Origin: a virus | DNA length: 64,000 nt | Reading direction: 5' to 3' (one strand) | IMG/VR virus record: IMGVR_UViG_3300028274_000006 | Location: 10,773-74,772 of that record | In this document: positions 1 through 64,000 of the stretch, piece after piece | Numbering within the stretch: the stretch's first letter is position 1 | How the letters are laid out: the number at the start of each line of letters is the position of its first letter | Program-made: the position numbers and the translations under genes | Notes under the pieces: model-generated | What the model was told of the DNA's origin: nothing | What the model saw: the letters and a program-made list of their open reading frames with translations, nothing else | Database searches by the model: none

Positions 1-43
1 AGTTGCTTTGTTGCTCGTAGCTTACAACGGTTAAAGGAGACTT

Positions 44-829
44 ATGTCTAAACCAAAAACCGACGCAGCCTCCAGTGAAGTTAAGGGTGGGAGTGCGGAA
101 TTATCCAACAACCCCGAATTACTAAAACTGGAACAAGCAGTGAAAGCTGAGGCTGGTACGGCTAAATCACCTGAAACTTCTTCCGAAGAGAAGGAGGTTC
201 TTGAAGCCCCAGAACACGGACAAGCATTTCAAGAGCTTTCAGAGAAGAAAGGCTTTAAAAGCGTTGATGAACTCGTAAGGGCTTATCAAACAACCGAAGG
301 ATATTCTACTCAACTGTCGCAAGAGATGAAGGAACTTCGTGAAGAGATAAAGCAGTCAAATGCTCCTCAGTCTGAAGATCCATACGGCGACTTACCGCAA
401 GAGCAGAAACAAGCTCTAGACCTTTTGCGTAACGTCGTAAATGAAGAGATACAAAAAAGTATCTCACCAATTAAGGAAGATTTTGAAGTCAAGAAGGCAT
501 CCGAACAGCTTAACGCTATTCGCGATTCTTTTAAAGGCGTTTCTGACGCTGATCTTGATGCTGCAATCTCTCGTAAAGAGAGCATTCCGGGTTTATCCCT
601 GGAAGAAGCAGTTAAAATCGTAACTTATGAGGCTGCTCGTAGTGACGGAACTACTCAAAGGAAGAGAGCTGCAAAGACAAAACAGAAGAATAGAGCTTAT
701 GTTGAGTCTGGTAAAACGTCTAAAACAGGCGGAGATATTGATTACTCTAAACTCTCATTGGAAGAACTAGAGTCAATACTCCCCAAAGCTGGTCAATTTA
801 TTGATCACAAGGGCATTTTACAAAAGTAA
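44..829 (+). CDS. Capsid scaffolding protein
   Basis: Acidic and helical, directly before the major capsid gene, AAGGAG RBS, paralog of 34328-35113. Confidence 0.75.
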   Translation: MSKPKTDAASSEVKGGSAELSNNPELLKLEQAVKAEAGTAKSPETSSEEKEVLEAPEHGQAFQELSEKKGFKSVDELVRAYQTTEGYSTQLSQEMKELREEIKQSNAPQSEDPYGDLPQEQKQALDLLRNVVNEEIQKSISPIKEDFEVKKASEQLNAIRDSFKGVSDADLDAAISRKESIPGLSLEEAVKIVTYEAARSDGTTQRKRAAKTKQKNRAYVESGKTSKTGGDIDYSKLSLEELESILPKAGQFIDHKGILQK

Positions 830-850
830 TAATTATTAGGAGAAACAACA

Positions 851-1771
851 ATGGCATTAACAACCACTGGTACCCTCTCCTCAGTTGTCAAGTCTTACTA
901 TGACCGACGCTTTCTTATGAGAGCCGAAGCAGAGTTTGTCTACAAACAACTTGGACGCATTGGTGTCGTTCCAGCTAACGAAGGTAAAACTGTCGTTTGG
1001 AACCGATATACCAATCCAAGTGCTAAGACTTCAGCACTGACAGAAGGTACAGACCCAACGCCAAGCGGATTGAGCGCATCATTAGTATCCGCAACCATTA
1101 GCCAATACGGCAACTTTGAACAAGTTACCGATATTTTGAGCTTAACTGCAATTGATAATTCAATTTCATCCGCAGTTGAACTCTTGGCTTATGAAGCAGC
1201 CTTGAGCATTGACACTGTCATTCGTGACATTGCCGCCGCAACCACAAGCATTATCTACGCCTCTGGCGTTGCAAATAGAACTTCTATTTCAGCCACAGAC
1301 GTTATGCAAGTTGCAGATGTTCGTAAGACTGTTCGTGAGCTGAAAAGCAACAATGCTAAACCTCAGATGAAGAGCGGCACATTTATGGCCGTCATTCACC
1401 CTGATGTTGAGTATGACTTGCAAGGTGACAGTAACTGGGTAAACGCATCCATCTATACCGAACAGGGTATTGGACAAGTTTACAACGGTGAAGTCGGTAA
1501 ACTATATGGTGTTCGTTTCTTGAACACCACTCAAGCTCCTATCTTAGTGAACTCCGGTTCCTCTGATGGCGTAGAGGTTTATCAATCACTTTTCTTCGGC
1601 GAAGAAGCATTTGGAGTTTCCGAACTTCAAAACCTAACCACTTATGTGGATAGTCCTTCTCCAAGAAGTGCTCTACGAATGTACAGTGACGTTGGTTGGA
1701 AGGCTGGCTTTACCGCCAAAATTCTCAACGACAACTTCATGTATAGTGTTGAGTCTGCTGCTACACAATAA
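851..1771 (+). CDS. Major capsid protein, N4-gp56 family-like
   Basis: EGTDP, QYG, IHPDVEYDL and GEVGKLYGVRF motifs typical of this family; followed by a terminator. Confidence 0.9.
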   Translation: MALTTTGTLSSVVKSYYDRRFLMRAEAEFVYKQLGRIGVVPANEGKTVVWNRYTNPSAKTSALTEGTDPTPSGLSASLVSATISQYGNFEQVTDILSLTAIDNSISSAVELLAYEAALSIDTVIRDIAAATTSIIYASGVANRTSISATDVMQVADVRKTVRELKSNNAKPQMKSGTFMAVIHPDVEYDLQGDSNWVNASIYTEQGIGQVYNGEVGKLYGVRFLNTTQAPILVNSGSSDGVEVYQSLFFGEEAFGVSELQNLTTYVDSPSPRSALRMYSDVGWKAGFTAKILNDNFMYSVESAATQ

Positions 1772-1792
1772 AATTTGTAGTATCATCCAATT

Positions 1793-1814
1793 AGGCTCCT
1801 TCGGGAGCCTTTTT
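1793..1814 (+). terminator. Rho-independent terminator after the capsid gene
   Basis: aggctcc-TTCG-ggagcct plus T-run, identical at 36079-36100. Confidence 0.9.
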
Positions 1815-1819
1815 GGTTG

Positions 1820-1828
1820 TGCTATAAT
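1820..1828 (+). promoter_or_regulatory. Extended -10 promoter for the GroES/glycosyltransferase operon
   Basis: TGCTATAAT, conserved at 36107-36115. Confidence 0.7.
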
Positions 1829-1849
1829 AATTTTGAAAGGAACAGACAC

Positions 1850-2128
1850 ATGATTATCCCAACAAATGAGAACGTGCTTGTTAAAGGTATTAAGCGTGAG
1901 AAGATTAAAACCGACTCAGGCATTTACCTGTCAGGAGGCACAAGCCAACAGGAGGAATCCTTGAGGTATGGAGAGATATTTCACCCAGGAGCTACCGAGT
2001 ATTCTAAAGGAGATAAGATCTTCTACAGTGCTTATAGTGCTGTATGGGTAAACGATGAAGCTGGTACCGAGTATCAATTACTAAGCCAACTAGATATAAT
2101 GGCAAAAGATGAACCCAAGAAGGCTTGA
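1850..2128 (+). CDS. groES: Co-chaperonin GroES (Cpn10)-like protein
   Basis: P-x3-VLVK...KTDSGIYL mobile loop, G-E-I, KGDKIFY, DIMA pattern; start moved to the RBS-preceded ATG. Confidence 0.8.
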   Translation: MIIPTNENVLVKGIKREKIKTDSGIYLSGGTSQQEESLRYGEIFHPGATEYSKGDKIFYSAYSAVWVNDEAGTEYQLLSQLDIMAKDEPKKA

Positions 2129-2405
2129 AACACTACTGAAGCAAGCTAATCCTCGTTTTAGAGTCAGACAGCGTGGACTCAATCACATTGGAGGGATATT
2201 CTTAGGATCGTCATTCATAGCCACCTTCACAAAGGGACACATCCCACTAAATTCATATAGGTTAGTTTTCAAGAAGAAAGACACTCTAGGAGAGAAGATT
2301 ATCAAACGTGGTCGTGGTGACTTACTACAGATCTTAGTTCGTCGTGGTATTTTGAAGAGGCTAGACTCAATAAGAATTAAATGGGGGATTGATGCCAAAG
2401 ATTAG
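2109..2405 (+). CDS. Basic hypothetical protein
   Basis: Paralog of 36405-36701 sharing TKGHIPLNSYR and IIKRGR. Confidence 0.75.
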   Translation: MNPRRLETLLKQANPRFRVRQRGLNHIGGIFLGSSFIATFTKGHIPLNSYRLVFKKKDTLGEKIIKRGRGDLLQILVRRGILKRLDSIRIKWGIDAKD

Positions 2406-3801
2406 CTGTATTATATCAACCTATAACAGAGCAGATCATTTTTTACCAAAGGCAATAGACTCAGTTTTGTCTCAGACGTTTAAAGACTGGGAATTGGTCA
2501 TTGTAGACGACTCAAGCACCGATGATACCAAAAAAGTAGTAAACTCCTATCAAGACGACCGCATTAGATACCTCAAAACCGGCTCTAATTCTGGTAGTGA
2601 TACCAAGCCTAAGAACTTGGGCACCAAAGAATCCAAAGGTGAATATATTTGCTACTTAGATGACGACGTGCAGTACCGTGAACATGCTTTTGAGATTCTA
2701 GTAGCGGAATTAGATGGAAACAAAGACTTGGACATTGTTTATGGAGATATGTGGATTAAACCTCGTGAAGAGGCTGGGATAGCATTTGACTTTGATGTAC
2801 AGTTTCTCATGCTTAGAAACTACATAGACACTTCAGCGGCCATGATGAGACGTGAGGCTATGTTTGAGATTGGTGGCTGGGATGAGAAGCTACCCAAGTT
2901 TGTAGATTGGAATGTATGGGTGAGGATGGCTAAGGCTGGATTAAAGTTTAAGAGGATTGAGGAGTTTACATTTGATTACTATTTACATGAAGACGCTAAG
3001 TCACAGAAAGTTAAAACAGATATGTATATGCATCCTAAGCTGGGGATGCTGTTTGTACCCACGTTTAGTCCTAGTGGATGTGAAATACGGCTGCCTTATT
3101 TAAGCAACGACGACTCCGTTTTTAAGGTGGCCATATTTACTATTCACTACAACCGATTGGATTACTCTAAGGATACTTATAGGGAGATGATGCTGACAGC
3201 AGGCTATGAGTTTGACTGGTTCTGTAGAGACAATGGAGATGATGGAACACTAGATTGGTTGATTAAAGACACCAACGCAATCATTGACCGCAAGGATGTT
3301 GGGAAGAACTTAGGTATTACCAAGTCCAGCAACAACCTTATAGAGCTTATTAAGGACACTGGAGAGTATGACATTATCATAAAAGTGGATAACGACGTTG
3401 AGTTCCAGACGTATGGATGGTTAAAAGATATTGTGGATATGTGGAAAAGAAACCACATGGCCTATATCTCACCTTATGTTGAAGGACTCTTTCACAACCC
3501 AGGCGGTGCTAGAAGGATAGGGTTTGGAATGATTGGCGATGAGTTTATTGAAGTTACCAACCACATAGGAGGAATCTTTGCCGCTATAGACGCTAAGGCT
3601 TATGACAGCTTTAGATGGGAAGACCAGATGTTACATGGCAATCAGGATGCAGAAGCTAGCATGGCTTTTAGGAAAATGGGATATATGCCCTGCTATTACC
3701 CCAAGCATAGAATCACTCACAGAGACGGCACTGAAGGACAACAACAGAAATACAAGAAATACTTTGAGAGAAGGAAAGAAGAAAAGACCACAAAGGCATG
3801 A
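2392..3801 (+). CDS. GT2 glycosyltransferase, two GT-A domains
   Basis: IISTYNR, VDDSSTD, YLDDD, then a second domain with KVDNDV. Confidence 0.9.
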   Translation: MPKISCIISTYNRADHFLPKAIDSVLSQTFKDWELVIVDDSSTDDTKKVVNSYQDDRIRYLKTGSNSGSDTKPKNLGTKESKGEYICYLDDDVQYREHAFEILVAELDGNKDLDIVYGDMWIKPREEAGIAFDFDVQFLMLRNYIDTSAAMMRREAMFEIGGWDEKLPKFVDWNVWVRMAKAGLKFKRIEEFTFDYYLHEDAKSQKVKTDMYMHPKLGMLFVPTFSPSGCEIRLPYLSNDDSVFKVAIFTIHYNRLDYSKDTYREMMLTAGYEFDWFCRDNGDDGTLDWLIKDTNAIIDRKDVGKNLGITKSSNNLIELIKDTGEYDIIIKVDNDVEFQTYGWLKDIVDMWKRNHMAYISPYVEGLFHNPGGARRIGFGMIGDEFIEVTNHIGGIFAAIDAKAYDSFRWEDQMLHGNQDAEASMAFRKMGYMPCYYPKHRITHRDGTEGQQQKYKKYFERRKEEKTTKA

Positions 3802-4655
3802 AACAATACCCTTATGTTTTTCCCTACTTTGGCTATGATGAGACATCAGCGGGCAATGTATTGATTCATAAGTTTTGTCACTTAATTAACGAGCTTGGTG
3901 GTAAAGCCTACATGGCTACCGACATTACTCATCCAGATCTAAACACTCCTAAAATAAACAACATACAAGGCGTAGACGATAAGTGCATTGTTGTCTCTCC
4001 TGAGAACATCAATCATTTAACCTATGGCGGTGATTACATAGTTAAGTACATCCAGGCTGACTATGAGAAGATTGGTAGGGGCAAAGTTGATTTGGCTGGA
4101 GTAGATGATGTGTGGTGCTTTGCAAAGACATTGTTTCCTAAGCATTGGGGTGGAGAAGTTAAGGTTTGTCATTTTAATACCGTTGATCTTAGTTTGTTTA
4201 ATGAAGACGAGAAGTTTGAGAGAAAGGGCAACATTTGTTACGTCGGTAGAATGGGCGGTAAGGTTGATACATCAATTCTAAAAGACATGAAAGACCTAAC
4301 TGCAATTACCCATGATTTCCCAAAAGACAGAAAAGACCTTATTAAACTCATGCGTAGTAGTGAGTGGTGTTATATATTCTCCAATACTTCAATAGGCAGT
4401 GAAGCCATTATGTGTGGCTGCCCAGTGGTTATGCATGAGAATTTCTCAATGGCTTATGCCTTTGACGAGTATGGTGAAGACGGGAAGTTGTACGGTATGG
4501 CTATAGGTAACTCACTAGAGCAAATGGAGTGGGCTAAGAAAACAGTTAAGAAGTTTCAGGAGAAGGTTTACTGGCATGAAAGCCAAAAGGAGAAAAGAGT
4601 ACTGGCCTTCATGGAAGATACTCAAAAAGGATTACATGAAAAACTACTCGGTTGA
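3798..4655 (+). CDS. Putative GT-B fold glycosyltransferase-like protein
   Basis: YVGR and EAIMCGCPVV GT-B-like C-terminal motif; inside the GT cluster. Confidence 0.55.
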   Translation: MKQYPYVFPYFGYDETSAGNVLIHKFCHLINELGGKAYMATDITHPDLNTPKINNIQGVDDKCIVVSPENINHLTYGGDYIVKYIQADYEKIGRGKVDLAGVDDVWCFAKTLFPKHWGGEVKVCHFNTVDLSLFNEDEKFERKGNICYVGRMGGKVDTSILKDMKDLTAITHDFPKDRKDLIKLMRSSEWCYIFSNTSIGSEAIMCGCPVVMHENFSMAYAFDEYGEDGKLYGMAIGNSLEQMEWAKKTVKKFQEKVYWHESQKEKRVLAFMEDTQKGLHEKLLG

Positions 4656-5334
4656 AGTTCTGGTGATGGCTCACTATGCTCAGAGAAGCGAGAACATGCT
4701 GAAGCTAATTAATGCTTTGAAGAACCAGACTTACAAACACATGTATATCACTGTCTTTGATGATGGAGAGATTGACCTAGATGTAGAAGGTGTGAACTAT
4801 ATTAGAACGACTGACATGTACCACATTACGGCTAGGAACAGCTTGGCTGCCATGAGTGCTGCTGACTATGTTCTTACAATAGACGATGACATGATTCCAG
4901 GTACAAGATATGTAGAGAATCTTATTAAGTATGCTCGGAATCTACCTGGTTCTATCATTGGTGTTGAGGGAGGCAGATTAGTTCCTGGAGACACCCCATA
5001 TACCTCTGGAATGACAGAGAGTACTCATATAATGGTAGAGGTTGATTATCTGATTAGAAGCATGCTACTCCCTCATAAGGTTATTGGGGCTTCTGTAGAT
5101 ATGCACTGCCGCAATAGAGAAAAGATTGGCTCTGAGTTTATAGATGATCTGCTGTTTAGCTTGGCAAACAAATATATGTTGAAGAACACCAACTTTATTG
5201 TTCCAGCAAAGGGCGACTTTGGATATGATAATATATCTGATATGGGGGTGGGTCAATCTAAAAGCTCACAACACTACCTTACTAGAGATATGTTTTGTAA
5301 GTATATAATGGAGGAATATGCAAATATCAGTTAA
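4636..5334 (+). CDS. GT-A fold glycosyltransferase
   Basis: LKNQT, FDDG, ARN and LTIDDD motifs. Confidence 0.75.
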   Translation: MKNYSVEVLVMAHYAQRSENMLKLINALKNQTYKHMYITVFDDGEIDLDVEGVNYIRTTDMYHITARNSLAAMSAADYVLTIDDDMIPGTRYVENLIKYARNLPGSIIGVEGGRLVPGDTPYTSGMTESTHIMVEVDYLIRSMLLPHKVIGASVDMHCRNREKIGSEFIDDLLFSLANKYMLKNTNFIVPAKGDFGYDNISDMGVGQSKSSQHYLTRDMFCKYIMEEYANIS

Positions 5335-5908
5335 TTATGACGACTTCAGTCCATTAAATCACAGGTTTGATATCTTAGATCAAATCAGAGAGAGATACCC
5401 AGACTTCAAAGTTACTATGTTTACCGTTCCTTGGGAGATAAGACTATCTCCGAATACAAAGGGTACTCCTATCACAAATAGCGACTACAAGCCCTGGGTT
5501 CACAGGGTTATGGAGGCAGTAGACAATGGGTGGATGGAGATATCAATTCATGGATTAACACACGCACCTAGAGAGTTTGAAAAACTAACACATACTGAAG
5601 CTAGGAATCGTGTGCTTACAGGACAGAAGATGTTTGCAAATGTAGGTCTTGAGATCAATAATTTGTTTAAAGCACCCCAGTGGCTACTTAACGATGACGC
5701 TAAGAAGGCAATAGAGGACTTAGGATTTAAAGTAATGGAAGACGGTTACTATAACTGGAACTTAAAAGATGAAATGCCTCTTGAGAAGAATCTAATAGCA
5801 CATGGTCATGTTCACGACACAATGGACAATGGTTTAGAAGAATCGTTCTTCAGACTTACTAAGGCTCCTACCGATACAGAGTGGGTGCACTTGAGGGAGA
5901 TGATATGA
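5318..5908 (+). CDS. Polysaccharide deacetylase-like protein (NodB/DUF2334-like)
   Basis: N-terminal DD, HGLTH and FKAPQW motifs. Confidence 0.75.
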   Translation: MQISVNYDDFSPLNHRFDILDQIRERYPDFKVTMFTVPWEIRLSPNTKGTPITNSDYKPWVHRVMEAVDNGWMEISIHGLTHAPREFEKLTHTEARNRVLTGQKMFANVGLEINNLFKAPQWLLNDDAKKAIEDLGFKVMEDGYYNWNLKDEMPLEKNLIAHGHVHDTMDNGLEESFFRLTKAPTDTEWVHLREMI

Positions 5909-6918
5909 AAATCGTGGCTTTCAGTAACGATACCGGCTCCGTACAGTGGAGGCTTAGGGGTCCAGCTAATTACATCAACTCTCTAACCGACCATGAGTTT
6001 GCTGTTGGTAGCCATAAGGACTGGGAAGAGGACACGATGGGTGCTGATGTAGTTGTAGCTGAGATGTGGCGTAATCCAAAAGGGATTGATGTTTGCCATG
6101 AGCAAGGAGCTAAAGTTGTTTACGATGCTGATGACATTATTATTGGCGTTGGTGGTAAAGACCGCAAAACTCTGATGGACTTAGACGAGAAGCAAACCAA
6201 GCAAACTATTGATACTATCGGCAAGTGTGATCTGGTTACAGTTACAACAGAGGTATTAGCAGAACACTATAGACAGTTTAATGACAACGTAATTGTCTTA
6301 CCAAACTACATGGATTATCTGTGGTGGGGAAAGCCCTTAGAGTCTAGGTCTAGAGGATACTTGAGGTTGGGGTGGGCTGGTAGCTTATCTCACCGAGAAG
6401 ACTTAATGATGATTGCTCCAGTGATAGAAAAGATCTGTAAGGACTATGATTTTGTTAAGTTTGTTTATTGTGGTGCAGGAGGCAAGAAGGGAATCTATGG
6501 GGAAGAGATCTTCAACAGCATTCCTTCTAACCAGAGGGAGTATGTTACCGGTGTCCCCTTAGAATACTGGCCAATCAAATCTAAGACACTAGGTTTAGAT
6601 ATAGCTATAGCCCCACTGTTAGATGATGAGTTTAATTCTTGCAAGAGTTCAATTAAATATTATGAGTATGCGGCCAACGGAGTGCCTGGAGTTTACAGCG
6701 ACACCGTTGTATATCACGACGCTATTAAACACGGAGAAACAGGCTATTTAGCAAAGACAAAGGGAGATTGGGAGAAGTACCTAATAGAGCTGATTATGGA
6801 TGAGAAGAAGAGGCAAGAGATAGCAGTTAATGCTTATAAACACGTCTTTGAGAACTATAATTTAGATGACCACTATGAGAAGTGGGTGAAAGCCTATCAA
6901 AAATGTCTGAACCAGTAG
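5905..6918 (+). CDS. GT4 (GT-B) glycosyltransferase
   Basis: VYDADD, GWAGSLSH, DIAIAPL and KYYEYAANGVP motifs. Confidence 0.9.
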   Translation: MKIVAFSNDTGSVQWRLRGPANYINSLTDHEFAVGSHKDWEEDTMGADVVVAEMWRNPKGIDVCHEQGAKVVYDADDIIIGVGGKDRKTLMDLDEKQTKQTIDTIGKCDLVTVTTEVLAEHYRQFNDNVIVLPNYMDYLWWGKPLESRSRGYLRLGWAGSLSHREDLMMIAPVIEKICKDYDFVKFVYCGAGGKKGIYGEEIFNSIPSNQREYVTGVPLEYWPIKSKTLGLDIAIAPLLDDEFNSCKSSIKYYEYAANGVPGVYSDTVVYHDAIKHGETGYLAKTKGDWEKYLIELIMDEKKRQEIAVNAYKHVFENYNLDDHYEKWVKAYQKCLNQ

Positions 6919-7493
6919 CAGTTCCCATAATACCAAGCAATGAACCGGTACCAAAAAGAGTTAGGGTTGATAGCCCATCCTCATCAGTGGTTGAGAGTCA
7001 TAGCCTAGAATCTTATAGCAGTACCTACAATAAGCCCTATCCTATGGACTACTTTGGTTTAAGCGACACAGATGGTTCATCTAGTAATGTTGAATCTATC
7101 ACCAAGCATTTAAGCGAGATGACTGATGGATCTATAGAGATGGTTAAGGGTGTTCTTGATGAAATAGGCAGTAAGTTAAATCTACAAGAAAATGACTCTG
7201 GAATCTTTAAGCTAAACAAGATCCTAGCGTTCTTAGGTATCAAGAGTATTCAAAACAAAGAATCAGAGATGAGTGAACAGGCCCTAAGGGATATCCAAAA
7301 GGATGTTGAGATTGCAAAGGAAGAACTAAGCATCGCTGAGAAAGCCGCCAAGATTGAACTTGAGGCAGAGAAGAGAAAGATCAAAGCAGAAAGCAATAGG
7401 AATGAACAATTAAAGAAACAAATAGCTAAAGGTCAAGACAAATTGAAAAGAATGAGGGCTAAAGTACTTGCAGATATTAAGGGAATAGTATAA
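6903..7493 (+). CDS. Hypothetical coiled-coil protein
   Basis: Distant paralog of 46615-47154. Confidence 0.7.
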   Translation: MSEPVAVPIIPSNEPVPKRVRVDSPSSSVVESHSLESYSSTYNKPYPMDYFGLSDTDGSSSNVESITKHLSEMTDGSIEMVKGVLDEIGSKLNLQENDSGIFKLNKILAFLGIKSIQNKESEMSEQALRDIQKDVEIAKEELSIAEKAAKIELEAEKRKIKAESNRNEQLKKQIAKGQDKLKRMRAKVLADIKGIV

Positions 7494-7526
7494 TATTATT
7501 CTGACGGAGCGGTCCTAGGACTGCTT
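7468..7526 (+). promoter_or_regulatory. Promoter and RBS-masking hairpin for the tail operon
   Basis: TTGCAG-N17-TAATAT followed by agcggtc-ctag-gactgct; conserved at 47129-47187. Confidence 0.6.
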
Positions 7527-8669
7527 ATGGCATATTCACCAGCTTCCAGCACATTTCCCACAGCTAAAACTACATTCGTTGATCCTACAGCTACAAGTAG
7601 TCAAAATACGTTTGACCACGCAGGACTTGAATCAGCACAGAACGATGGTATTGAAAAACTTGAAACAGCGGTGGGTATTACCGCAAGTGCTGACACAGCA
7701 TCTTTAAACTATAAACTTACCAACGCCTCACAAAGCAATCCAGGACACAAGCATACCGTAGCTGACGGAGCTACCGATGTTACCTCTAGTGCCGCGGAAC
7801 TCAACCAATTAGACGGAGTAACTGTTGGAGGAACTTCAAGCGGAGACATTGTTGATTTAGATACAGCACAAACCCTAGCCACTAAAACCCTAACAAGTCC
7901 TGTATTAAACGGGACTCTTTCTGGTACGGCCTTCTTAGATCAAGATGCAATGGATGATGACAGCGCTATTGCAGTAGCTAGCCAACAATCAATTAAGGCT
8001 TATGTTGACGCCAGTGCTGGTGGATCTACAACTGGTTGGACTTCAGATAGTGATACCTGGGTATATGCTTCGGCACAGACTTTTACAATTGCAGGTAAAG
8101 ACGTAACCACAACTTTTACTAAAGGGACACGGCTCATTTGGACACAAACAACTGTTAAATATGGAGTGGTGGTAGCAAGCTCATTCTCAACTGACACAAC
8201 GGTTACAATAATGACCAACACCGATTACACGATTGCAAATGCTGCTATTACAGTAAATTCATACTCATATCAACAGAATCCACAAGGTTATCCAACTTGG
8301 TTTGATATTGCCGCTCCAACATGGACTGGACTAGACGATGGGGCTGGTGGACAGCCAAGTGTGTCAGTGTGTAGAGGAATGGTTAATGGGAATACTTTTG
8401 ATGCTCATATTCATCTCGCCCCGACTAAAGCTGGCACAAGTAATACTTTCTATCTAGAAACAAGTGATACTGTTTTTCCAGTATGGGTTAATAGGGCTGA
8501 TAGATCTGGTCTGGGCTTTGTTTATTCTCAAACATCTGGAGATAGTAATAATTTAATGACTGCATTTTCAATCGGAACAAAGATATATACCGGATATGCA
8601 ATCCAGTCCAGTATTACTGACAATACAGCATGGACTCATATGACTTATAACTTGAAGTGGGAAATCTAA
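7527..8669 (+). CDS. Tail fibre/spike-like virion protein
   Basis: T/S/A/G-rich with QTLATKTLTSP and [11 protein letters not shown] fibre motifs; N-terminus shared with 47188. Confidence 0.7.
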   Translation: MAYSPASSTFPTAKTTFVDPTATSSQNTFDHAGLESAQNDGIEKLETAVGITASADTASLNYKLTNASQSNPGHKHTVADGATDVTSSAAELNQLDGVTVGGTSSGDIVDLDTAQTLATKTLTSPVLNGTLSGTAFLDQDAMDDDSAIAVASQQSIKAYVDASAGGSTTGWTSDSDTWVYASAQTFTIAGKDVTTTFTKGTRLIWTQTTVKYGVVVASSFSTDTTVTIMTNTDYTIANAAITVNSYSYQQNPQGYPTWFDIAAPTWTGLDDGAGGQPSVSVCRGMVNGNTFDAHIHLAPTKAGTSNTFYLETSDTVFPVWVNRADRSGLGFVYSQTSGDSNNLMTAFSIGTKIYTGYAIQSSITDNTAWTHMTYNLKWEI

Positions 8670-8849: not shown

Positions 8850-8856
8850 GAGAATT

Positions 8857-9567: not shown

Positions 9568-9568
9568 T

Positions 9569-53363: not shown

Positions 53364-53372
53364 GGAGATAAT

Positions 53373-54991: not shown

Positions 54992-54992
54992 T

Positions 54993-56177: not shown

Positions 56178-57532
56178 TGCCATTCACACCAATAAAAGAT
56201 TCATTTGAAAAAGAGTTAACACCAGGACAAAAGGTGGTTAAGGGGGTTTCAAAAGCTGCTCCTACTGCTGGTGCTATATTGGGAGGTATCGCTGGTTCAA
56301 TAGCTGGTATTCCCGCACTTGGATTAGGAGCAATTCCCGCAGGTGCTGCTGGGGCTGCTGCTGGAACTGGGGCTGGATTGGCACTGGGAGAAAGTTTAGA
56401 AAACCTGGCTAAAATTCAGGATGAAACAATATCAGAAAGAGCTGTTGAAGCCGTTAAAGAACCAGCAATAGCTGGATTGTTTGACCTACTTACAGCAGGA
56501 ACTCTTAAAGTGGCTGGTAAAACACTAGGACCAGTTGGCAGAGCACTAAAGGGAGCTACAAAAGGAGTTGGAAGAGTGTTTGTACCGAAGAATGCTAGTA
56601 CTAAAGCATTTGGCTCAATCTTCAAAACAAGTAGTCGTATTGCGTCTGAACTCAAACCAGATGAGGTGGCTACAGAGATGGTTAAACACGGTTTTACTGG
56701 TGACTTAGATGACTTAGCTAAGATAGCTAATGATGTTAGCGGAGCAGATGGAGCCATTAGTAAGATAACCAGAAACGCCGTTGGAAAAGTGGGAAGGTCA
56801 ATAGACATAGGTGATGCACTGACCGCAGCGGGGAAGGCAGCAGATGATGCTGTAAACGTAGATGCAAACACACTAAGAAAGACACAGGTTGGAATTTCAA
56901 ATATTTTAAGCAAGGGTCTTGGAAAAGAAGGTGTAACTGGAATAAATCCACTAGACGCATTAGATGCACAAAGGTCTTTAGAAAAGATTGGTTATAGCCT
57001 TCTAAATAAAGCTGCAAGAAGTGCAGACGGATTATCTGCTGAGGTTTTAGAACAACAAGCAAAAATCTATTTAGGATCTGCTGATGAGGTGGCTGTAGCT
57101 ATTGATAAGGCAACCAAGGGAGCTATTATTGACAGTTTCAAAACCCCACAGGTTTTAGATAGTCTGAATGCAATCTCTCCAAGATTAGCAAAGCAGTTTA
57201 GGGCTGCTCAGAGTATTCCTGAGATTAGGTCAATCGCAAAGCCATTTGTGAGAATGTCTAAACTAATTGATGCAACTAAAGCATATTCTAGTTCAGCTTT
57301 TCTAGAAGGAATAAGAGGAAGAGGAGTGGGAGAATTAGTTACTGGAGCATTGACAAGACCTGAGGCTGCCACATCATTTGCGGTGGCTGGTAAGGAATTA
57401 GTGGAAAGTCCTATTGGTAGGGGGGTAGCTGGAACAGCTAGAATAGCTGGTCAAGCTGCTGAAAAAGTAATGAGTCCAAGTACGGCAAGAATGCTAGTTC
57501 AATTAGGATTAATACCTAGTAGGGAAGAATAG
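56177..57532 (+). CDS. Putative ejection protein (copy B)
   Basis: Paralog of 14731. Confidence 0.55.
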   Translation: MPFTPIKDSFEKELTPGQKVVKGVSKAAPTAGAILGGIAGSIAGIPALGLGAIPAGAAGAAAGTGAGLALGESLENLAKIQDETISERAVEAVKEPAIAGLFDLLTAGTLKVAGKTLGPVGRALKGATKGVGRVFVPKNASTKAFGSIFKTSSRIASELKPDEVATEMVKHGFTGDLDDLAKIANDVSGADGAISKITRNAVGKVGRSIDIGDALTAAGKAADDAVNVDANTLRKTQVGISNILSKGLGKEGVTGINPLDALDAQRSLEKIGYSLLNKAARSADGLSAEVLEQQAKIYLGSADEVAVAIDKATKGAIIDSFKTPQVLDSLNAISPRLAKQFRAAQSIPEIRSIAKPFVRMSKLIDATKAYSSSAFLEGIRGRGVGELVTGALTRPEAATSFAVAGKELVESPIGRGVAGTARIAGQAAEKVMSPSTARMLVQLGLIPSREE

Positions 57533-57533
57533 T

Positions 57534-57602
57534 TTATCTACCGCCAAAAATGGCACCTGAAATAAACAGGAGAACGAAAATTAAAATGATAAAACCGATC
57601 AT
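57534..57602 (-). CDS. 22-aa single-TM peptide MIGFIILIFVLLFISGAIFGGR
   Basis: Homolog of 16156-16224 with the same promoter arrangement. Confidence 0.75.
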   Translation of the reverse strand: MIGFIILIFVLLFISGAIFGGR

Positions 57603-57616
57603 AAGGACATTATAAC

Positions 57617-59020
57617 ATGGCAAAGACATCAACAGAGCTAACTATACAAAAGCTAGAGAATGATATAGCTGATAAGTCAGTTTCTCCTTATGTTATTAGG
57701 CGTGGTTTAATTGGCAAGGCTAGTGATGGTACTTACTACAATATCGTTGCTACTACCGACGGAGAGTTAAAGACTGTTGCTGGTGGACACATTTCTACCG
57801 CCAACTCTACAACCACAGTATTAGATCCCGCTGGAGTAAATGCCTTCACAGGAACCGCAGAGGATATTACTGATGTCTCAGCGATTGTTATTCATGTTAA
57901 GGCTTCTCATGCTTCAGCCACAGATGGTTTAAGCGTTCAGTGGTCACCCGATGGAACTAATTGGGATGGCACAGATGACTTCACTGTTCCTGCTGCTAGT
58001 GGTAAGACATACTCGTTTCAACCAGCAGCTCAATATATCAGGGTGGTTTACACCAACGGAGGAACACTACAGACCTATTTCAGACTCCAAACAATATTTA
58101 AGCATACCAACATCAAACCAAGCTCACACCGAATAGCTGATGCAATCATTGACGACGATGACGCAGAGCTAGTAACTTCAGTCCTTAAAGCTAAGGCTAA
58201 TGGTGGTGGGTTTGTAAACATTGAAGCTACAGCCTCAAACAACTTGAGGGTGACTGATGCTGAGTCGGGGCTATCTATCGCTAAGGGAGATGTTACTGAC
58301 CACTCATTCATTCATAAGTTCGGAGCAGCCCCAGACTTTGATGTAGGGGATGGCTTTGTAACTGTATGGGATGGTGCTGAGGATGATGTGGCGTGGATGT
58401 TAATGAACTATGTTTACTCAAGTACAGCAGCCATAGATTCTATAAGCTCAACAGATGATGGAGATACACAAGATGTTGAGATTCAAGGATTAGATGCTAA
58501 CTACGATTTAGTTATTCAAACAGTAACTCTTACTGGTAATACTAGGAAGGCTTTAGACACAGACCTTATTAGAATATTTAGAATTAAAAATGTGGACTCA
58601 TCTAATTTTGCAGGACACGTTATTGTTTATGAAAATGACACCACTGGGGATGACCCAGGAGTACCAGATGATTCAAACTTAATTAGGGCGGTAGTACAAC
58701 CAGACAACAACCAGACTGAGATGGCGGTATTTACTATACCTGACGGATATACTGGTTACATGAGGTCTTGGTATGCAAGTACAGCGGGGGCTAAGAGAGA
58801 CAGCCAACACACCATTAAAATTTTAGCTAGACCATTTGGTCAGGTTTTCCAACTTAAACATAAGGCTAATATTTCTGTTACAGGAAACTCATATATTCAA
58901 CATAGGTATGAAGAACCAGAGAAGTTTTCAGCCAAGACAGACATTGAGATGCAGATGGATACCGATACGGATATAGCAGGTGTAGCTGGTGGATTTGATA
59001 TAGTATTAGTAGCGGATTAA
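57617..59020 (+). CDS. Putative virion structural protein
   Basis: N-terminus shared with 16240; long unrelated beta-rich remainder. Confidence 0.6.
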   Translation: MAKTSTELTIQKLENDIADKSVSPYVIRRGLIGKASDGTYYNIVATTDGELKTVAGGHISTANSTTTVLDPAGVNAFTGTAEDITDVSAIVIHVKASHASATDGLSVQWSPDGTNWDGTDDFTVPAASGKTYSFQPAAQYIRVVYTNGGTLQTYFRLQTIFKHTNIKPSSHRIADAIIDDDDAELVTSVLKAKANGGGFVNIEATASNNLRVTDAESGLSIAKGDVTDHSFIHKFGAAPDFDVGDGFVTVWDGAEDDVAWMLMNYVYSSTAAIDSISSTDDGDTQDVEIQGLDANYDLVIQTVTLTGNTRKALDTDLIRIFRIKNVDSSNFAGHVIVYENDTTGDDPGVPDDSNLIRAVVQPDNNQTEMAVFTIPDGYTGYMRSWYASTAGAKRDSQHTIKILARPFGQVFQLKHKANISVTGNSYIQHRYEEPEKFSAKTDIEMQMDTDTDIAGVAGGFDIVLVAD

Positions 59021-59024
59021 ACTT

Positions 59025-59231
59025 ATGGAAAATGGTAACACTCAAAAATACAGGTTAGAGCAACTAGAGAAGAACTACGATGGTCTTGACGATAAGATTG
59101 ACAAGATAATGACTAACCACTTGCCCCATATCCATGAAGAGCTCATCAAGCTCAACACCCAAGTAAAAGTATTTGCCACAGTTAATGTCGGTGCGGTGAT
59201 AGTAGCTATTCTTTTACAAAGGTTCTTATGA
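59025..59231 (+). CDS. Small coiled-coil/TM lysis-region protein
   Basis: Paralog of 20301. Confidence 0.65.
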   Translation: MENGNTQKYRLEQLEKNYDGLDDKIDKIMTNHLPHIHEELIKLNTQVKVFATVNVGAVIVAILLQRFL

Positions 59232-59665
59232 ACACAAAAACCGTAAACAAGATTGCAACTGCATTACTATTAGTAATGTTTACTGCACTTGTCTCTATAA
59301 TCACCTACCTTGTTTATCCAGTTAATATAATCAGCGTAGTTCAACCATATAAAGTGTTGAATGAGAATAAGGAAGTTGTTAGGGGAGAGAAGCTAGTCTA
59401 CGAAGTGGAGTACACCAAACATACAGATACCCCAGCCGTCATATATAGGAATGTTGTTTGTGATGATGGTAACTTAGTAACCTTATCTCCAGTAGATAGT
59501 AACGTACCAAGGGGAGAGCATAAAATAGTTAGATCTGATGTAGTAATCCCAGGAAAGACATCGCTTGGAATGTGTAAGTTATCTATAGTCTTAGACTACG
59601 AGTGGAGCCATATAAGAGACATAAGATATAATTTTGAGACAGAAAGTTTCAAGGTCATTAAATGA
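59228..59665 (+). CDS. Membrane-anchored protein
   Basis: N-terminal TM; equivalent of 20504. Confidence 0.65.
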   Translation: MNTKTVNKIATALLLVMFTALVSIITYLVYPVNIISVVQPYKVLNENKEVVRGEKLVYEVEYTKHTDTPAVIYRNVVCDDGNLVTLSPVDSNVPRGEHKIVRSDVVIPGKTSLGMCKLSIVLDYEWSHIRDIRYNFETESFKVIK

Positions 59666-60669
59666 TGCTACAACAATTCATAGATAAGTGGTCTGGTCAA
59701 AACGCTGATTGGGACAATTACTATGCTGGTCAGTGTGTTGATCTTTTCCGTTACTACTGTGATGAGGTGATGGAGATTAAACAACCAGCAGGAGTTTGGG
59801 GTGCAGCAAACTTCTGGACTAACTTTGAATCTGATACAATACTAAAAGAGAACTTTAATAAAATACCAAATGACTCAGACTTCACCCCGCAGGAAGGCGA
59901 TGTGATGATCTGGAACTTCAACGCAGGAGGTGGTTATGGACACATAGCTATCTGCACTGGCGAAAACACAGGGACACAGTACTTCAAGAGCTTTGACCAA
60001 AATTGGTCTAGAGTATCCTACTGTGAAATAGTCAACCATAGCTATAAGAACGTCTATGGGGTACTACGACCCAAGATATTAAGTACACAAGATGATATGC
60101 CAAATGAATTACTAGACAAGTATGGAGTCAAAGATACAGATGAACTTGACTATAAAATAAACGAACACGTTGGAACTGATTGGGGTGGTGGGCGTAACTC
60201 TGGATATTTAGGAGCTGAACGTGAAAAAAACAAACGATTGGAAACAGAGAACCAAGGACTTAAAGAAGAGATTGATAGGCTTAAAGCAGAGAGTGCTGAA
60301 AACTATGCACAAGCTGAACTTCGTAAGAAAGAGATTCAGAAGTTTAAGGAAGAGCTGGCTAAAAAGTTGTTCCTACCTGCTGCAAGCGATCAAACAGACA
60401 TTATTAGCTCTATTGAGAGACTACTGACAGTAGAGGATCAACTTACCGAGGCTAACAAGACTATCTCCAAGAAAGAACAAGAGTTTGCCACTAAAGAGAA
60501 AGCATGGACCTCAGAGATTGAGGAACTGAAGTCTCATATAAAAACGCTAACTAATCGGCTTGAGAATTTAGAGCAAGAGATAGAGAGTGGAAAGACTGAA
60601 AAAGCCGAAAACGATTGGTTTAAGAGTGTCGTGGATAAGATATTAAGTATATTTAATAAGGAGAAGTAA
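59662..60669 (+). CDS. Endolysin: CHAP domain plus coiled coil
   Basis: GQCVDL, YGHIAI and DQNW motifs; C-terminal half homologous to 20929. Confidence 0.9.
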   Translation: MMLQQFIDKWSGQNADWDNYYAGQCVDLFRYYCDEVMEIKQPAGVWGAANFWTNFESDTILKENFNKIPNDSDFTPQEGDVMIWNFNAGGGYGHIAICTGENTGTQYFKSFDQNWSRVSYCEIVNHSYKNVYGVLRPKILSTQDDMPNELLDKYGVKDTDELDYKINEHVGTDWGGGRNSGYLGAEREKNKRLETENQGLKEEIDRLKAESAENYAQAELRKKEIQKFKEELAKKLFLPAASDQTDIISSIERLLTVEDQLTEANKTISKKEQEFATKEKAWTSEIEELKSHIKTLTNRLENLEQEIESGKTEKAENDWFKSVVDKILSIFNKEK

Positions 60670-60884
60670 TGGCAAAAAAGAAACTTCAACTATCAGATGT
60701 TGCTAAGAAACACCTGAAAATCATTGGCTACTTAGTAGCTTCTGGTGGACTAGGTATTCTAGTCGCTTACCTAACTGAGAAACCAGAACTAGCTGTAGTG
60801 TTTGCACCTGCTGTAAACTATGTCATCTACATTATTGAGAAAGAACTCAAGAATGAAGGTGTCAGAGCAGCGTTGAAGAAGTGA
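60669..60884 (+). CDS. Putative holin
   Basis: Two hydrophobic segments directly after the lysin. Confidence 0.5.
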   Translation: MAKKKLQLSDVAKKHLKIIGYLVASGGLGILVAYLTEKPELAVVFAPAVNYVIYIIEKELKNEGVRAALKK

Positions 60885-61138
60885 AAGAATATTGTCCCCC
60901 TTCGTGTGGGATGATTGACGACGACAGTCCAGTTTGTGAGGGTAAAAGTGGTAGAGATTCTTGCTGGCATAGTAAGGATGAGGTTTATAGTACCCCAATT
61001 CCAATAGAGATGATTTGGTACGGAAGCGTTTGGATTCAAGCCATGATTGTTGGCGAGAATGAAGATGATTACATTATAGAGAGTCCTAAAGCAGAAGGAG
61101 TAACTTACATTAAGAAGAATAGCCCTTTATTAAAATAG
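60881..61138 (+). CDS. Hypothetical Cys-containing protein
   Basis: GTG start coupled to the upstream stop. Confidence 0.45.
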   Translation: MKEYCPPSCGMIDDDSPVCEGKSGRDSCWHSKDEVYSTPIPIEMIWYGSVWIQAMIVGENEDDYIIESPKAEGVTYIKKNSPLLK

Positions 61139-61407
61139 TAGAAAGATAGGGTGAGTGATAAGACTGAGAGTGAACCAGATATAGAGGTTTACTGTCACGA
61201 TTGTGAGACAGTCTTGTATTCGGCTGTCGCTAATTGGATCACTAACGCAGTAGCCAACGATAGAGCAGTAGACCACGCAGAAGCAATGCAACACGCTGTA
61301 ATAATCTATGAGAAAGGCTACCCCTTATGAAAGAAGTAGCCATCACCAACCCAACCACTTAAAACGCAAGAAAAGTGAAGATGAATAGATTGATATAGTA
61401 CGCACTA

Positions 61408-61545
61408 TTGACACGATAATTATTTAGGTGCTATTGTTAATTTGATAGTAAGAAACTATCGGAGTAAACAACGTTAGCATTGAATACCTCTTTGGGGTGT
61501 TGTTGTAGCTAACGACACGACACCACTCCAGAGAGGTTTTTTATT
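61408..61545 (+). promoter_or_regulatory. Promoter and structured leader/terminator
   Basis: TTGACA-N18-TATTGT; hairpin 61486-61537 plus T-run; cgttagc/gctaacg. Confidence 0.65.
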
Positions 61546-61556
61546 AGCACATTAAC

Positions 61557-61692
61557 AGCTTGTTAATTATAAAGAGAGGTGGCGGAATAGGAACGCACCG
61601 CAGAAATGTGGGTTCAGTCGTTAGAAATCTGTTGTAAGGTGTGCATTTATGCCCGAGGTAAATCCTTGCCCTCTCTTTATAGCTAATAAGCT
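61557..61692 (+). ncRNA. boxA-preceded long-stem tRNA-like element (copy B)
   Basis: ~23-bp stem; TGGCGGAATAGGAACGC D-arm; gtaagg...GTAAAT-ccttgc T-arm with insert. Confidence 0.65.
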
Positions 61693-61948
61693 ATGGACCC
61701 AAACAAGGGATATAGCTTCCCACTAAACAGGTCACAAAAAAACGAATTAGTTGTAAGATGCTATCCGAAAGCGAAGGGTGACGGAATTACCCTTACATAA
61801 CGTTATGACATAAATACAGACCCGATGACTTGTCGTGGGGTAAGGGTGGCGTCTCAAAAACATACCTTTAACCAAACAAGTCAGCCGAGAAGCTCAGGGT
61901 TCTGGAATTCACCCTAAACTAATAACTAAATAGTAAATAAAACGTGTA

Positions 61949-61978
61949 TTGACACATTGTAAACAGTATGGGTATACT
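61949..61978 (+). promoter_or_regulatory. Promoter with GTAAACA motif
   Basis: TTGACA-N18-TATACT. Confidence 0.75.
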
Positions 61979-61995
61979 TAGATAAAGGAGAGAAT

Positions 61996-62259
61996 ATGTT
62001 TACCTATCACGCTAAAACAACTTACAACGGGTGGAAGATTGGTGAGGAGAACTACAATCTATATATAGGAGTGCCTAAGAAGTATCTGTTTGGTAAAAAC
62101 GGAATCCCTCGCACTATAGAGATAGAACACAATGGTAGGATAGAGAGGGTAGGTATAGAGGAAAGCGTAAAGGAAGAAGAACAAATCCAACAACTAAACA
62201 CTCAAGCTAAACACATATTAGTTTACTTCTTATGGGAGGAGAGAGATGAAAATATTTAG
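61996..62259 (+). CDS. Conserved hypothetical protein
   Basis: Paralog of 25376. Confidence 0.75.
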   Translation: MFTYHAKTTYNGWKIGEENYNLYIGVPKKYLFGKNGIPRTIEIEHNGRIERVGIEESVKEEEQIQQLNTQAKHILVYFLWEERDENI

Positions 62260-62578
62260 ACCGTGGGTTCCAGTAAGAAGACTCGCCACCTCAGGTAATA
62301 AGCTACAGAGAGAGTGGTTAAAGTATTTGTTTTTAAAAGGACTGATTGAAAATGATTGGGATATAAGAGAACAATCGTGTTCAATTTCTCATAATACCAA
62401 CATTGGTACAATGATTGAGTTTTTATCAGATCAGGAAGATTGTGGTCTCTACATAAGGAGTGTTTGTGGAGATGGTTGGTTGGTAAAACATGGAGAGATT
62501 ACTAAGTTTGATGAAGAGCTCCGCTATGCTCTTTGGGAAACTATATTGGAGGTACTAAATGAAAACAAACCTACTTAA
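62246..62578 (+). CDS. Hypothetical protein
   Basis: NIGTMIEFL...ELRYALWETILEVL segment; coupled to neighbours. Confidence 0.65.
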   Translation: MKIFRPWVPVRRLATSGNKLQREWLKYLFLKGLIENDWDIREQSCSISHNTNIGTMIEFLSDQEDCGLYIRSVCGDGWLVKHGEITKFDEELRYALWETILEVLNENKPT

Positions 62579-62749
62579 AGCTAAACTAAAAGAGATAGAG
62601 AAACAAGCTAAATCAGCTTCAGAGGGTAAGAAGCGACAACTCCGTATGCAGTATATGGTTATTAGGAATCAGATTAGAACTCTTGAGAACAAGCCTAAAA
62701 CCTTCTCAGATAATGTAGTAGACTCCCTATTTTAGTGCTATACTATTTA

Positions 62750-62850
62750 TACCCGCCAATGATGTTCTCTCCAGATACTTCAGGCGGGTTCTAAGAAAGC
62801 GATTCGTAAGAAGCGGCTTAAGTCGTGGGCAGGACGGGTCGCTTTCTTTG
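62750..62850 (+). ncRNA. Putative small RNA (copy B)
   Basis: TGCTATACT at 62736; homolog of 26117-26193. Confidence 0.7.
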
Positions 62851-62932
62851 TGTTAAAATGAATGTAATATCAGTTGTGACCAGCAATCCCCGTTTACCAC
62901 AACTGAGCGGGGATTTTTGGTAGAAAGACAGC

Positions 62933-63385
62933 ATGGCAAGAAAATTAATAAATGAAGTTGGCAATAAGTATGGATTACTTACTGTAATAAAAAGAAATAA
63001 TAAAAAGTGGGTTTGTGTTTGTGAGTGTGGAGAATTTGCTTTTTATGCAGGACATGACTTAAGGAGAGGAAAAAGAAAGTCTTGCGGATGTATTGGTTGT
63101 TTTAAAGTGAAACATGGTATGTCAAATACTCCAACCTATCACACCTGGGAGAACATGAAGCTCCGTTGCTATAATGATAATAGAGACAACTATAATAGAT
63201 ATGGTGGCAGAGGAATTAGTGTTTGTGGTCGTTGGAAAGATAGTTTTAAGAACTTCTACGAGGATATGGGAAAAAGACCAAACAATAAGACAATAGACAG
63301 AATTGACGTTAATAAGAACTACACTCCAGATAACTGCCGATGGTCTACTCCGAAAGAGCAAAGGGCAAATCAAAGACCCTATTGA
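62933..63385 (+). CDS. HNH-type homing endonuclease-like protein
   Basis: WVCVCECG, YGGRGISVC and TIDRIDVNKNYTPDNCRW motifs; absent from copy A. Confidence 0.85.
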   Translation: MARKLINEVGNKYGLLTVIKRNNKKWVCVCECGEFAFYAGHDLRRGKRKSCGCIGCFKVKHGMSNTPTYHTWENMKLRCYNDNRDNYNRYGGRGISVCGRWKDSFKNFYEDMGKRPNNKTIDRIDVNKNYTPDNCRWSTPKEQRANQRPY

Positions 63386-63410
63386 CAATGTGTAAACACC
63401 ATAGTATATT
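63382..63410 (+). promoter_or_regulatory. Early promoter with GTAAACA motif
   Basis: TTGACA-N17-TATATT, homologous to 26210. Confidence 0.75.
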
Positions 63411-63442
63411 TAGGTTAATATAAACATAAGAAGGAGAGACTT

Positions 63443-63595
63443 ATGAGCATACCACTAAGCGGAGACTGCTACGCAGACTTCAACCCCAAAGTAAAAACAG
63501 AACCTATTGTGAATGATGTTGAAGACCAGCAATGGGAAGATACGATGGAAGATGAGAGGTTTGAAGCACAACCATGGGAGGCTGAATCATGTTAA
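63443..63595 (+). CDS. Small acidic early protein
   Basis: Homolog of 26272. Confidence 0.7.
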   Translation: MSIPLSGDCYADFNPKVKTEPIVNDVEDQQWEDTMEDERFEAQPWEAESC

Positions 63596-63735
63596 AAACA
63601 CAGCTTGAAATTGCAATAGAAATATTAGACGAGGCACTAAAGAGTTCACACGATGAAACTCTGAGGGATAAAATAGCCGCCTCACTAATGTACTTGAGAG
63701 AATATAAATACTTTGTAGAACGAGGTGAAGATTAA
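63589..63735 (+). CDS. Small early protein
   Basis: Homolog of 26415. Confidence 0.75.
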   Translation: MLKTQLEIAIEILDEALKSSHDETLRDKIAASLMYLREYKYFVERGED

Positions 63736-63869
63736 TGTCTATATCAAGATGCCCATACTGCGGTACACAATATGACCAAGACTTTAATGTAGAACATGAG
63801 GAAGAATGCGAGATGGAAACTCAGGAAGAACACGAAGAAGTATGTGAAGGATGGTTATTAGATAAATAG
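63735..63869 (+). CDS. Small acidic C2HC-type protein
   Basis: Homolog of 26561. Confidence 0.75.
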   Translation: MSISRCPYCGTQYDQDFNVEHEEECEMETQEEHEEVCEGWLLDK

Positions 63870-63877
63870 GGGGAATT

Positions 63878-64000
63878 ATGAGAGATTTTACTAGAAAACA
63901 ACTCAAAGAAATGAGCAGAACAAAGCTAGTTGATATTGCATATAAAGCTATTCAAAAACAACGCCGCATGAATAGAGTTATGTTTTATGATGTTCCAAAA
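63878..64000 (+). CDS. Hypothetical early protein (truncated by window end)
   Basis: Identical to the 5' part of 26704. Confidence 0.75.
   Translation, partial: MRDFTRKQLKEMSRTKLVDIAYKAIQKQRRMNRVMFYDVPK

What the first reader, a model, noticed from the sequence alone, without database searches (positions are those of the whole stretch)
1..64000. Two diverged, apparently intact podophage-like genomes head-to-tail with no host DNA, integrase or visible att scar
Seen: about 25 genes recur in the same order with an offset of 34.3-37.2 kb. Core proteins are close (capsid 306/306 aa, nozzle 516/516 aa) while synonymous sites differ widely, and both sets are open reading frames. Bases 1-43 match the portal-scaffold spacer at 34285-34327, so another terminase/portal block probably lies upstream. 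Inference: this is either a real hetero-concatemer or tandem array of sibling elements with different surface types, or an assembler path through two co-occurring circular genomes.
Basis: partly seen in the sequence, partly recalled or inferred. Interest (0 to 1): 0.8.

Follow-up and report, generated by a model that had tools for sequence, protein, structure and literature searches.

The report
Two sibling phage genomes mis-joined by assembler
The two phage genomes lying head-to-tail are almost certainly two separate, co-occurring marine phages of about 37 kb each, which a short-read assembler strung into one contig because they share one identical 304-base stretch.

Summary
The window is the last 64,000 bases of a 74,772-bp IMG/VR contig. 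That contig is two complete, colinear laps of a ~37-kb phage genome: A is contig 1-37673 and B is contig 37674-74772. Core genes are 72-78% identical in DNA and synonymous sites are heavily diverged.

The two longest exact repeats sit on the contig's ends. The last 127 bases equal contig 37472-37598, and the first 102 bases equal contig 37674-37775. Only 75 bases lie between these, so A and B share one 304-bp identical block. A relative from the same database closes with an exact 127-bp end repeat, which points to assembly k = 127.

Public seawater runs separate the two genomes:
- One run holds B at 17-26x and A at about zero. One of its contigs joins B-tail to B-head through the block.
- Another run holds mostly A, with a contig joining A-tail to A-head.
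- In a probable source run the depths differ: A 16.3, B about 14.

The relative is a 38.4-kb monomer. No integrase, resolvase, tRNA or host DNA was found. I read this as an assembly walk through two circular genomes (about 0.92). Mate pairs across the block in the source sample were not testable.

The parts
1..26901 (+). Lap A, window part (contig 10773-37673). The whole of A is contig 1-37673, about 37.7 kb. The window starts between A's portal-adjacent gene and its putative scaffold gene (no family match).
   Evidence: Gene order: TerL, portal, putative scaffold, MCP, sugar cassette, tail and virion genes, M23-type peptidase, endolysin-like peptidase, small early genes.
26633..27044 (+). 412-bp block that is about 99% identical between A and B (4 mismatches), against 72-78% elsewhere. 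It is probably a recently exchanged segment. In a probable source run it assembles as its own 412-bp contig at roughly summed depth (24.7).
   Evidence: Alignment; X1 record 2.
26700..27003 (+). 304-bp stretch identical in A and B (127 + 75 + 102 bases; contig 37472-37775). This is the repeat through which the assembler passed from A into B.
   Evidence: Exact repeats. The A-closure contig (X21 record 32) and the B-closure contig (X20 record 17) show no differences in the middle 75 bases.
26827..26901 (+). The 75 bases present only once in the contig. They are the stretch missing between the contig's 3' end and its 5' end.
26704..27048 (+). ORF of 114 aa with no family match, which holds the shared block. 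The second copy is split between the contig's two ends: the first 41 codons at window 63878-64000, and the rest at contig 1-147.
   Evidence: g063 against g120, 100% over 41 aa; no PHROG match.
26902..64000 (+). Lap B (contig 37674-74772). With the 75 bases added it forms a circle of 37,174 bp.
   Evidence: In X20 a contig joins B-tail to B-head without a gap.
63874..64000 (+). Terminal 127 bases of the contig, identical to window 26700-26826. This is the length and position expected for a k=127 de Bruijn vertex where the A-tail and B-tail edges merge.
   Evidence: The relative G001 has an exact 127-bp end repeat, indicating k = 127 in that assembly. CheckV paper: end repeats at k-mer lengths are assembler products (PMC8116208).

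Best explanation
The contig is a chimeric assembly. Two distinct but related marine phages live in the same water: A is 37,673 bp and B is 37,174 bp. Each assembles as a closed circle, meaning it is circular, circularly permuted or terminally redundant. They have the same gene order, about 77% DNA identity in core genes, and different sugar-modification and tail-fibre modules.

They share one 412-bp near-identical segment with a 304-bp exact core, probably from a recent exchange. In a k=127 de Bruijn graph this makes a figure of eight: one shared edge and two loops.

The assembler began on loop A just after the shared edge, ran round A, crossed the shared edge, took loop B instead of closing A, and stopped when it met the shared edge again.

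What is shown: the position of the ends on the repeat, the separate occurrence of A and B, and the self-closure of each. What is inferred: the assembler's path choice and the k value.
For: (1) The window is contig 10773-74772 of a 74,772-bp record. The contig holds exactly two laps.

(2) The two longest exact repeats in the contig are 127 bp (contig 37472-37598 = 74646-74772, ending on the last base) and 102 bp (contig 1-102 = 37674-37775, starting on the first base). The next longest is 53 bp.

(3) Run X20 covers the B half at 17-26x and the A half at 0-1.7x away from the shared block. Its 2,951-bp record 17 crosses window 26559-27722 with exactly 18 non-reference letters. The 15 letters that the tool listed all equal the B-tail base, and 18 is the total number of A-tail/B-tail differences there. 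So this contig is B-tail, then the block, then B-head.

(4) Runs X19 and X21 cover the A half at 1-5.5x and the B half patchily at 0-3x. X21 record 32 (window 26492-27056) is pure A-tail and carries the A-head allele C at 27004. Its total of 3 differences matches that allele plus the two next A-head differences, read from the alignment.

(5) In X1, a possible source run, the A contig has depth 16.3, the B contigs 12.3-14.4, and the shared 412-bp node 24.7.

(6) The relative IMGVR_UViG_3300028195_000196 is 38,506 bp with an exact 127-bp end repeat. It matches each lap once and runs uninterrupted from endolysin through the small genes to the HNH gene and TerL, that is, across the equivalent of the junction.

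(7) No integrase, resolvase, tRNA or host DNA was found.

(8) Assemblers are known to concatenate genome copies in IMG/VR contigs and to leave k-length end repeats (PMC8116208).
Against: Eighteen of the 24 runs listed hold at least 81% of a query made half of A and half of B, so A and B usually co-occur. These runs look like one 2018 seawater campaign, so this is weak evidence.

The depths in X1 are not far from 1:1.

A true A-B concatemer or circular dimer would give the same graph and the same contig ends, so the position of the ends alone does not decide.

The 5' end starts 102 bases before the first A/B mismatch, not the 127 expected. These 25 bases are unexplained.

I could not examine read pairs or long reads across the block in the source sample.
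Confidence: 0.92

Rival explanations
1. Real hetero-concatemer or circular heterodimer. A and B co-infect one host and recombine at the 304-bp block, and A-B head-to-tail replicative DNA is abundant enough to be assembled.
For: A and B co-occur in most runs that hold either. The near-identical block shows they have exchanged DNA. Depths in X1 are within about 20% of each other. The graph cannot exclude it.
Against: B occurs at 26x without A, and A occurs with little or no B. Contigs with B-to-B and A-to-A closure exist. X1 depths differ consistently: 16.3 for A against 12.3-14.4 over five B contigs. A monomer relative of 38.4 kb fixes the packaged genome size. From general knowledge, replicative intermediates are a small part of the DNA in a seawater sample.
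Confidence: 0.05
2. Two sibling prophages or satellites integrated in tandem in a host chromosome.
For: Head-to-tail order on the same strand. Tandem lysogens are known in general.
Against: No tyrosine or serine recombinase in six frames, with the controls ringing. No tRNA. No host gene anywhere in the 74.8 kb. The junction lies inside a conserved ORF and is not an att-like short repeat. Both contig ends are phage sequence on the shared block. A and B occur apart.
Confidence: 0.01
3. The join was made after assembly, by scaffolding, binning or merging of contigs, and not by a graph walk.
For: It would give the same outcome: two genomes in one record.
Against: There are no Ns in the record. The join passes seamlessly through a 304-bp shared block, and the 3' end is an exact 127-mer overlap. 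This is the mark of a de Bruijn path and not of scaffolding.
Confidence: 0.02

Closest known systems
Assembler-made concatenated viral genomes in IMG/VR (CheckV 'contig longer than expected' and k-mer frequency above 1; PMC8116208)
   Same: The contig is about twice the monomer length, the two laps run head-to-tail in the same order, and the end overlap has the length of the assembler's k-mer. It is an artefact of assembling circular templates.
   Different: The two laps are different species-level genomes (about 77% identity), not copies of one genome. The k-mer frequency would therefore stay near 1, and a check based on exact duplication would probably not flag it. The join goes through one short block that the two genomes share.
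Mosaic 'phage components' in assembly graphs, with variant genomes sharing unitigs (Phables; PMC10563150)
   Same: Related phages in one sample share unitigs, which tangles the graph. Assemblers and binners can output several variants as one sequence.
   Different: The Phables cases are mostly variants above 95% ANI that share many unitigs. Here only one 304-bp unitig is shared, so the graph is a clean figure of eight.
Head-to-tail replicative concatemers of tailed phages (general knowledge)
   Same: Head-to-tail arrangement of whole genome units.
   Different: Concatemers repeat one genome. Here the units differ at about 23% of bases, carry different gene cassettes and occur separately in other samples.

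Membership tests
Chimeric assembly (figure-of-eight graph walk through two genomes) | Contig ends coincide with the edges of the exact repeat shared by the two units | tested here: met
   the 127-bp repeat ends on the last base of the contig and the 102-bp repeat starts on the first base. The next longest exact repeat is 53 bp.
Chimeric assembly (figure-of-eight graph walk through two genomes) | The terminal overlap has the length of the assembler's k-mer | tested here: inconclusive
   The 3' end is exactly 127 bp, and a relative's end repeat is also exactly 127 bp. The 5' end is 102 bp, 25 short of this. The assembler and its k value are inferred, not on record.
Chimeric assembly (figure-of-eight graph walk through two genomes) | The units occur independently in other samples | tested here: met
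   in X20, B is at 17-26x and A at about 0. In X19 and X21, A is at 1-5.5x and B at 0-3x, patchy.
Chimeric assembly (figure-of-eight graph walk through two genomes) | Each unit closes on itself in independent assemblies | tested here: met
   X20 record 17 runs B-tail, block, B-head. It has 18 non-reference letters, equal to the count of A-tail/B-tail differences there, and the 15 letters listed are all B-tail alleles. X21 record 32 runs A-tail, block, A-head allele.
Chimeric assembly (figure-of-eight graph walk through two genomes) | No read pairs or long reads link A-specific to B-specific sequence in the source sample | not testable with these tools
   Only Logan contigs were available for these 2018-2020 runs, not raw reads.
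Real hetero-concatemer or heterodimer | Both units at equal depth wherever either is found | tested here: not met
   A against B is 16.3 against about 14 in X1, 0 against 26 in X20, and about 3 against about 0.3 in X21.
Tandem integrated prophages | Integrase or recombinase gene, host flanks, att repeats at the unit borders | tested here: not met
   PF00589 and PF00239 are absent in six frames, with the controls positive. No tRNA. No host genes. The border lies inside an ORF.

The most novel reading that the evidence does not exclude
In the source water, A and B really are joined in part of the DNA. These would be hetero-concatemers made by homologous recombination at the 304-bp block while both phages replicate in the same cell. 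The contig would then record frequent co-infection of one host by two sibling phages with different surface-glycan and fibre modules.
Probability: 0.05. Interest if true: 0.45.

Novelty: not a real feature. Interest (0 to 1): 0.1.

Why it matters
The main value is as a caution. A 74.8-kb record rated 100% complete and 'linear' in a public virus collection is really two genomes of 37.7 and 37.2 kb. Because the two laps are only about 77% identical, checks that look for exact duplication would probably miss it. Such a record could inflate expected genome lengths for its relatives.

For biology, the useful product is the pair of resolved genomes. They are two long-diverged sibling marine phages that co-occur and have recently exchanged about 400 bp. 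They differ mainly in a sugar-modification cassette next to the capsid gene and in fibre genes.

Tried and rejected
- An exact 37-base pattern across the block found no other contig in viral contigs or metagenome contigs.
- The first sequencing-run run failed because the stretch was one base too long. I corrected it.
- The junction ORF has no PHROG match and no homologue in three relatives' records. So the block is not a generally conserved element such as a packaging site.
- The portal's best match among cultured or deposited phages is only 27.5% identical, so there is no close known relative and no host assignment.
- DNA polymerase A was not found. The RNA polymerase search had no positive control and says nothing.
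- I considered a difference between A and B inside the 75-bp middle as the reason for the 102-bp 5' overlap. I rejected it because both closure contigs match the contig there.
- Patchy low cover of the B half in X19 and X21 may be a little B or a third relative. I did not resolve this.
Full report
WHERE THE WINDOW LIES. The window is bases 10773-74772 of a 74,772-bp IMG/VR virus record. IMG/VR classes it as 'linear' and CheckV rates it 100% complete. I laid the whole record in the script box and worked in both coordinate systems. Window coordinate equals contig coordinate minus 10772.

BLASTN of the window against itself and of the contig against itself gives a single colinear series of direct matches at 70-92% identity. 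The long core-gene blocks are 72-78% identical.
- The contig is two laps of one genome plan: lap A is contig 1-37673 and lap B is contig 37674-74772.
- The offsets drift from 34.3 to 41.5 kb because each lap has its own insertions.
- ORF-by-ORF BLASTP finds 24 gene pairs inside the window and 8 more upstream. These include TerL (414/414 aa, 77%), portal (578/578, 84%), major capsid protein (306/306, 86%) and a 516-aa virion protein (81%).
- In ungapped pairs, 42-57% of third codon positions differ, against 7-24% of first and second positions. Both sets are therefore old, separately evolving and functional.

WHAT THE ELEMENTS ARE. PHROG and Pfam scans identify the following, all on the + strand:
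- TerL, portal and major head protein.
- A sugar-modification cassette directly after the capsid gene. It holds GT2 glycosyltransferases in both laps. Lap B additionally has two SDR epimerase/dehydratases, a DegT-type aminotransferase and a nitroreductase-family gene.
- Virion and tail proteins, M23-type peptidases and an endolysin.
- Several HNH endonucleases, and a ParB-methyltransferase in A only.

Six-frame searches found no integrase or serine recombinase, with the controls positive. No DNA polymerase A was found and there are no tRNAs. The portal's best match in the deposited-phage collection is 27.5% identical, to podophage-type portal or head-to-tail joining proteins. 'Podophage-like' is therefore an inference, and there is no close cultured relative.

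THE JUNCTION. The longest exact repeats in the contig are:
- 127 bp, contig 37472-37598 = 74646-74772, ending on the very last base.
- 102 bp, contig 1-102 = 37674-37775, starting on the very first base.
- The next longest is 53 bp.

Only 75 bases (contig 37599-37673, window 26827-26901) lie between the two internal copies. The alignment of tails and heads shows a 412-bp block (window 26633-27044) with only four A/B mismatches, set in sequence that is otherwise about 77% identical. It covers the end of a small ORF and nearly all of a 114-aa ORF of unknown function (window 26704-27048). The second copy of that ORF is split between the two ends of the contig. The ORF has no homologue in three relatives' records. 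The block therefore looks like a recent exchange between A and B and not a universally conserved site.

WHY THIS POINTS TO THE ASSEMBLER. In a de Bruijn graph with k = 127, the B-tail edge must end on the first 127-mer that A and B share. That is exactly where the contig ends. A relative from the same database, IMGVR_UViG_3300028195_000196, has an exact 127-bp end repeat. The CheckV paper notes that end repeats of k-mer length are left by assemblers on circular templates. It also notes that assemblers sometimes concatenate genome copies in IMG/VR contigs (PMC8116208).

The ends alone do not decide the question, because a true A-B dimer would give the same graph.

INDEPENDENT EVIDENCE THAT A AND B ARE SEPARATE GENOMES. 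A 10-kb query made of 5 kb of A-tail and 5 kb of B-head is held by 24 listed seawater runs. Eighteen hold at least 81% of it, two hold 49% and four hold about 40%. I laid four runs on window 16901-36900.
- Run X20 covers the B half at 17-26x and the A half at 0-1.7x away from the shared block. Its 2,951-bp contig (record 17) crosses window 26559-27722 without a gap and with 18 non-reference letters. In one search I checked that the 15 letters the tool listed each equal the B-tail base, and that 18 is the total number of A-tail/B-tail differences in that stretch. This contig is therefore B-tail, block, B-head. B closes on itself, without A, as a circle of 37,174 bp.
- Runs X19 and X21 cover the A half at 1-5.5x and the B half only patchily (0-3x).
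- X21's record 32 (window 26492-27056) is identical to A-tail and carries C at window 27004, the A-head allele. Its total of three differences equals that allele plus the next two A-head differences, read from the alignment. A therefore closes on itself, as a circle of 37,673 bp.
- Neither closure contig differs from the contig in the 75-bp middle. The exact shared block is therefore 304 bp.
- In X1, which may be the source sample, the A contig has depth 16.3 and five B contigs have 12.3-14.4. The block is a separate 412-bp contig at depth 24.7, close to the sum of the two.

THE MONOMER SIZE. The relative G001 (38,506 bp including the 127-bp repeat) matches each lap once. It runs unbroken from the endolysin through about 5 kb of small genes to the HNH gene and TerL, that is, across the equivalent of the A/B border. 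Another relative's contig is 38,973 bp. The natural unit is therefore about 37-38.5 kb.

VERDICT. The tandem arrangement is an assembly artefact with probability about 0.92. It is a walk round a figure-of-eight graph formed by two co-occurring sibling phage genomes that share a 304-bp exact block. A real hetero-concatemer cannot be formally excluded in the source sample, because mate pairs across the block could not be examined (about 0.05). Tandem prophages are contradicted: there is no recombinase, no host DNA, and the border lies inside an ORF.

One detail is unexplained. The 5' end begins 102 bases before the first A/B mismatch, not the expected 127.

TOOLS THAT DID NOT HELP.

Noticed in passing
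window 36688-46630 (lap B) and 2389-6918 (lap A): There is a sugar-modification cassette between the capsid gene and the tail genes. A double-GT2 gene on the left and a glycosyltransferase on the right are shared by both laps. The middle differs. Lap B has a nitroreductase-family gene, two SDR epimerase/dehydratases, two GT2s and a DegT-type aminotransferase. Lap A has two or three unrelated ORFs with no PHROG match. The cassette may glycosylate the virion or modify the host surface.
   Followed up: partly
window 16630-20304 (lap A only): A collagen-like tail-fibre protein (335 aa), two small ORFs and a 567-aa glycosyltransferase are present in A. In B a 467-aa protein (phrog_8198) takes their place at 57617-59020. 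This looks like a swap of the receptor-binding module.
   Followed up: partly
L003 (contig) 4367-5683 and 3493-4356: Lap A alone carries a ParB-domain DNA methyltransferase fusion (438 aa) and a UDP-glucose dehydrogenase-like gene (287 aa) upstream of TerL. In B only a 57-aa remnant matches the latter.
   Followed up: no
L003 (contig) 9195-10416: Two genes (136 and 272 aa) are inserted between the portal gene and the next conserved gene in lap A. They are absent from lap B, where those two genes abut.
   Followed up: no
window 62933-63385: An HNH endonuclease (150 aa, phrog_374) is present only in lap B, about 0.5 kb upstream of the shared block. A mobile endonuclease close to a recently exchanged segment may not be a coincidence.
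   Followed up: no
G001 = IMGVR_UViG_3300028195_000196 (L011, L012): This closed 38.5-kb relative, with an exact 127-bp end repeat, is given only 43% completeness by CheckV. Double-length chimeric records among the references might distort such estimates. I did not test this.
   Followed up: no
window 22832-23668: About 0.8-1.1 kb in lap A has no ORF of 45 aa or more (between 22831 and 23943). Earlier notes of this scan propose structured RNAs here. I did not examine it.
   Followed up: no
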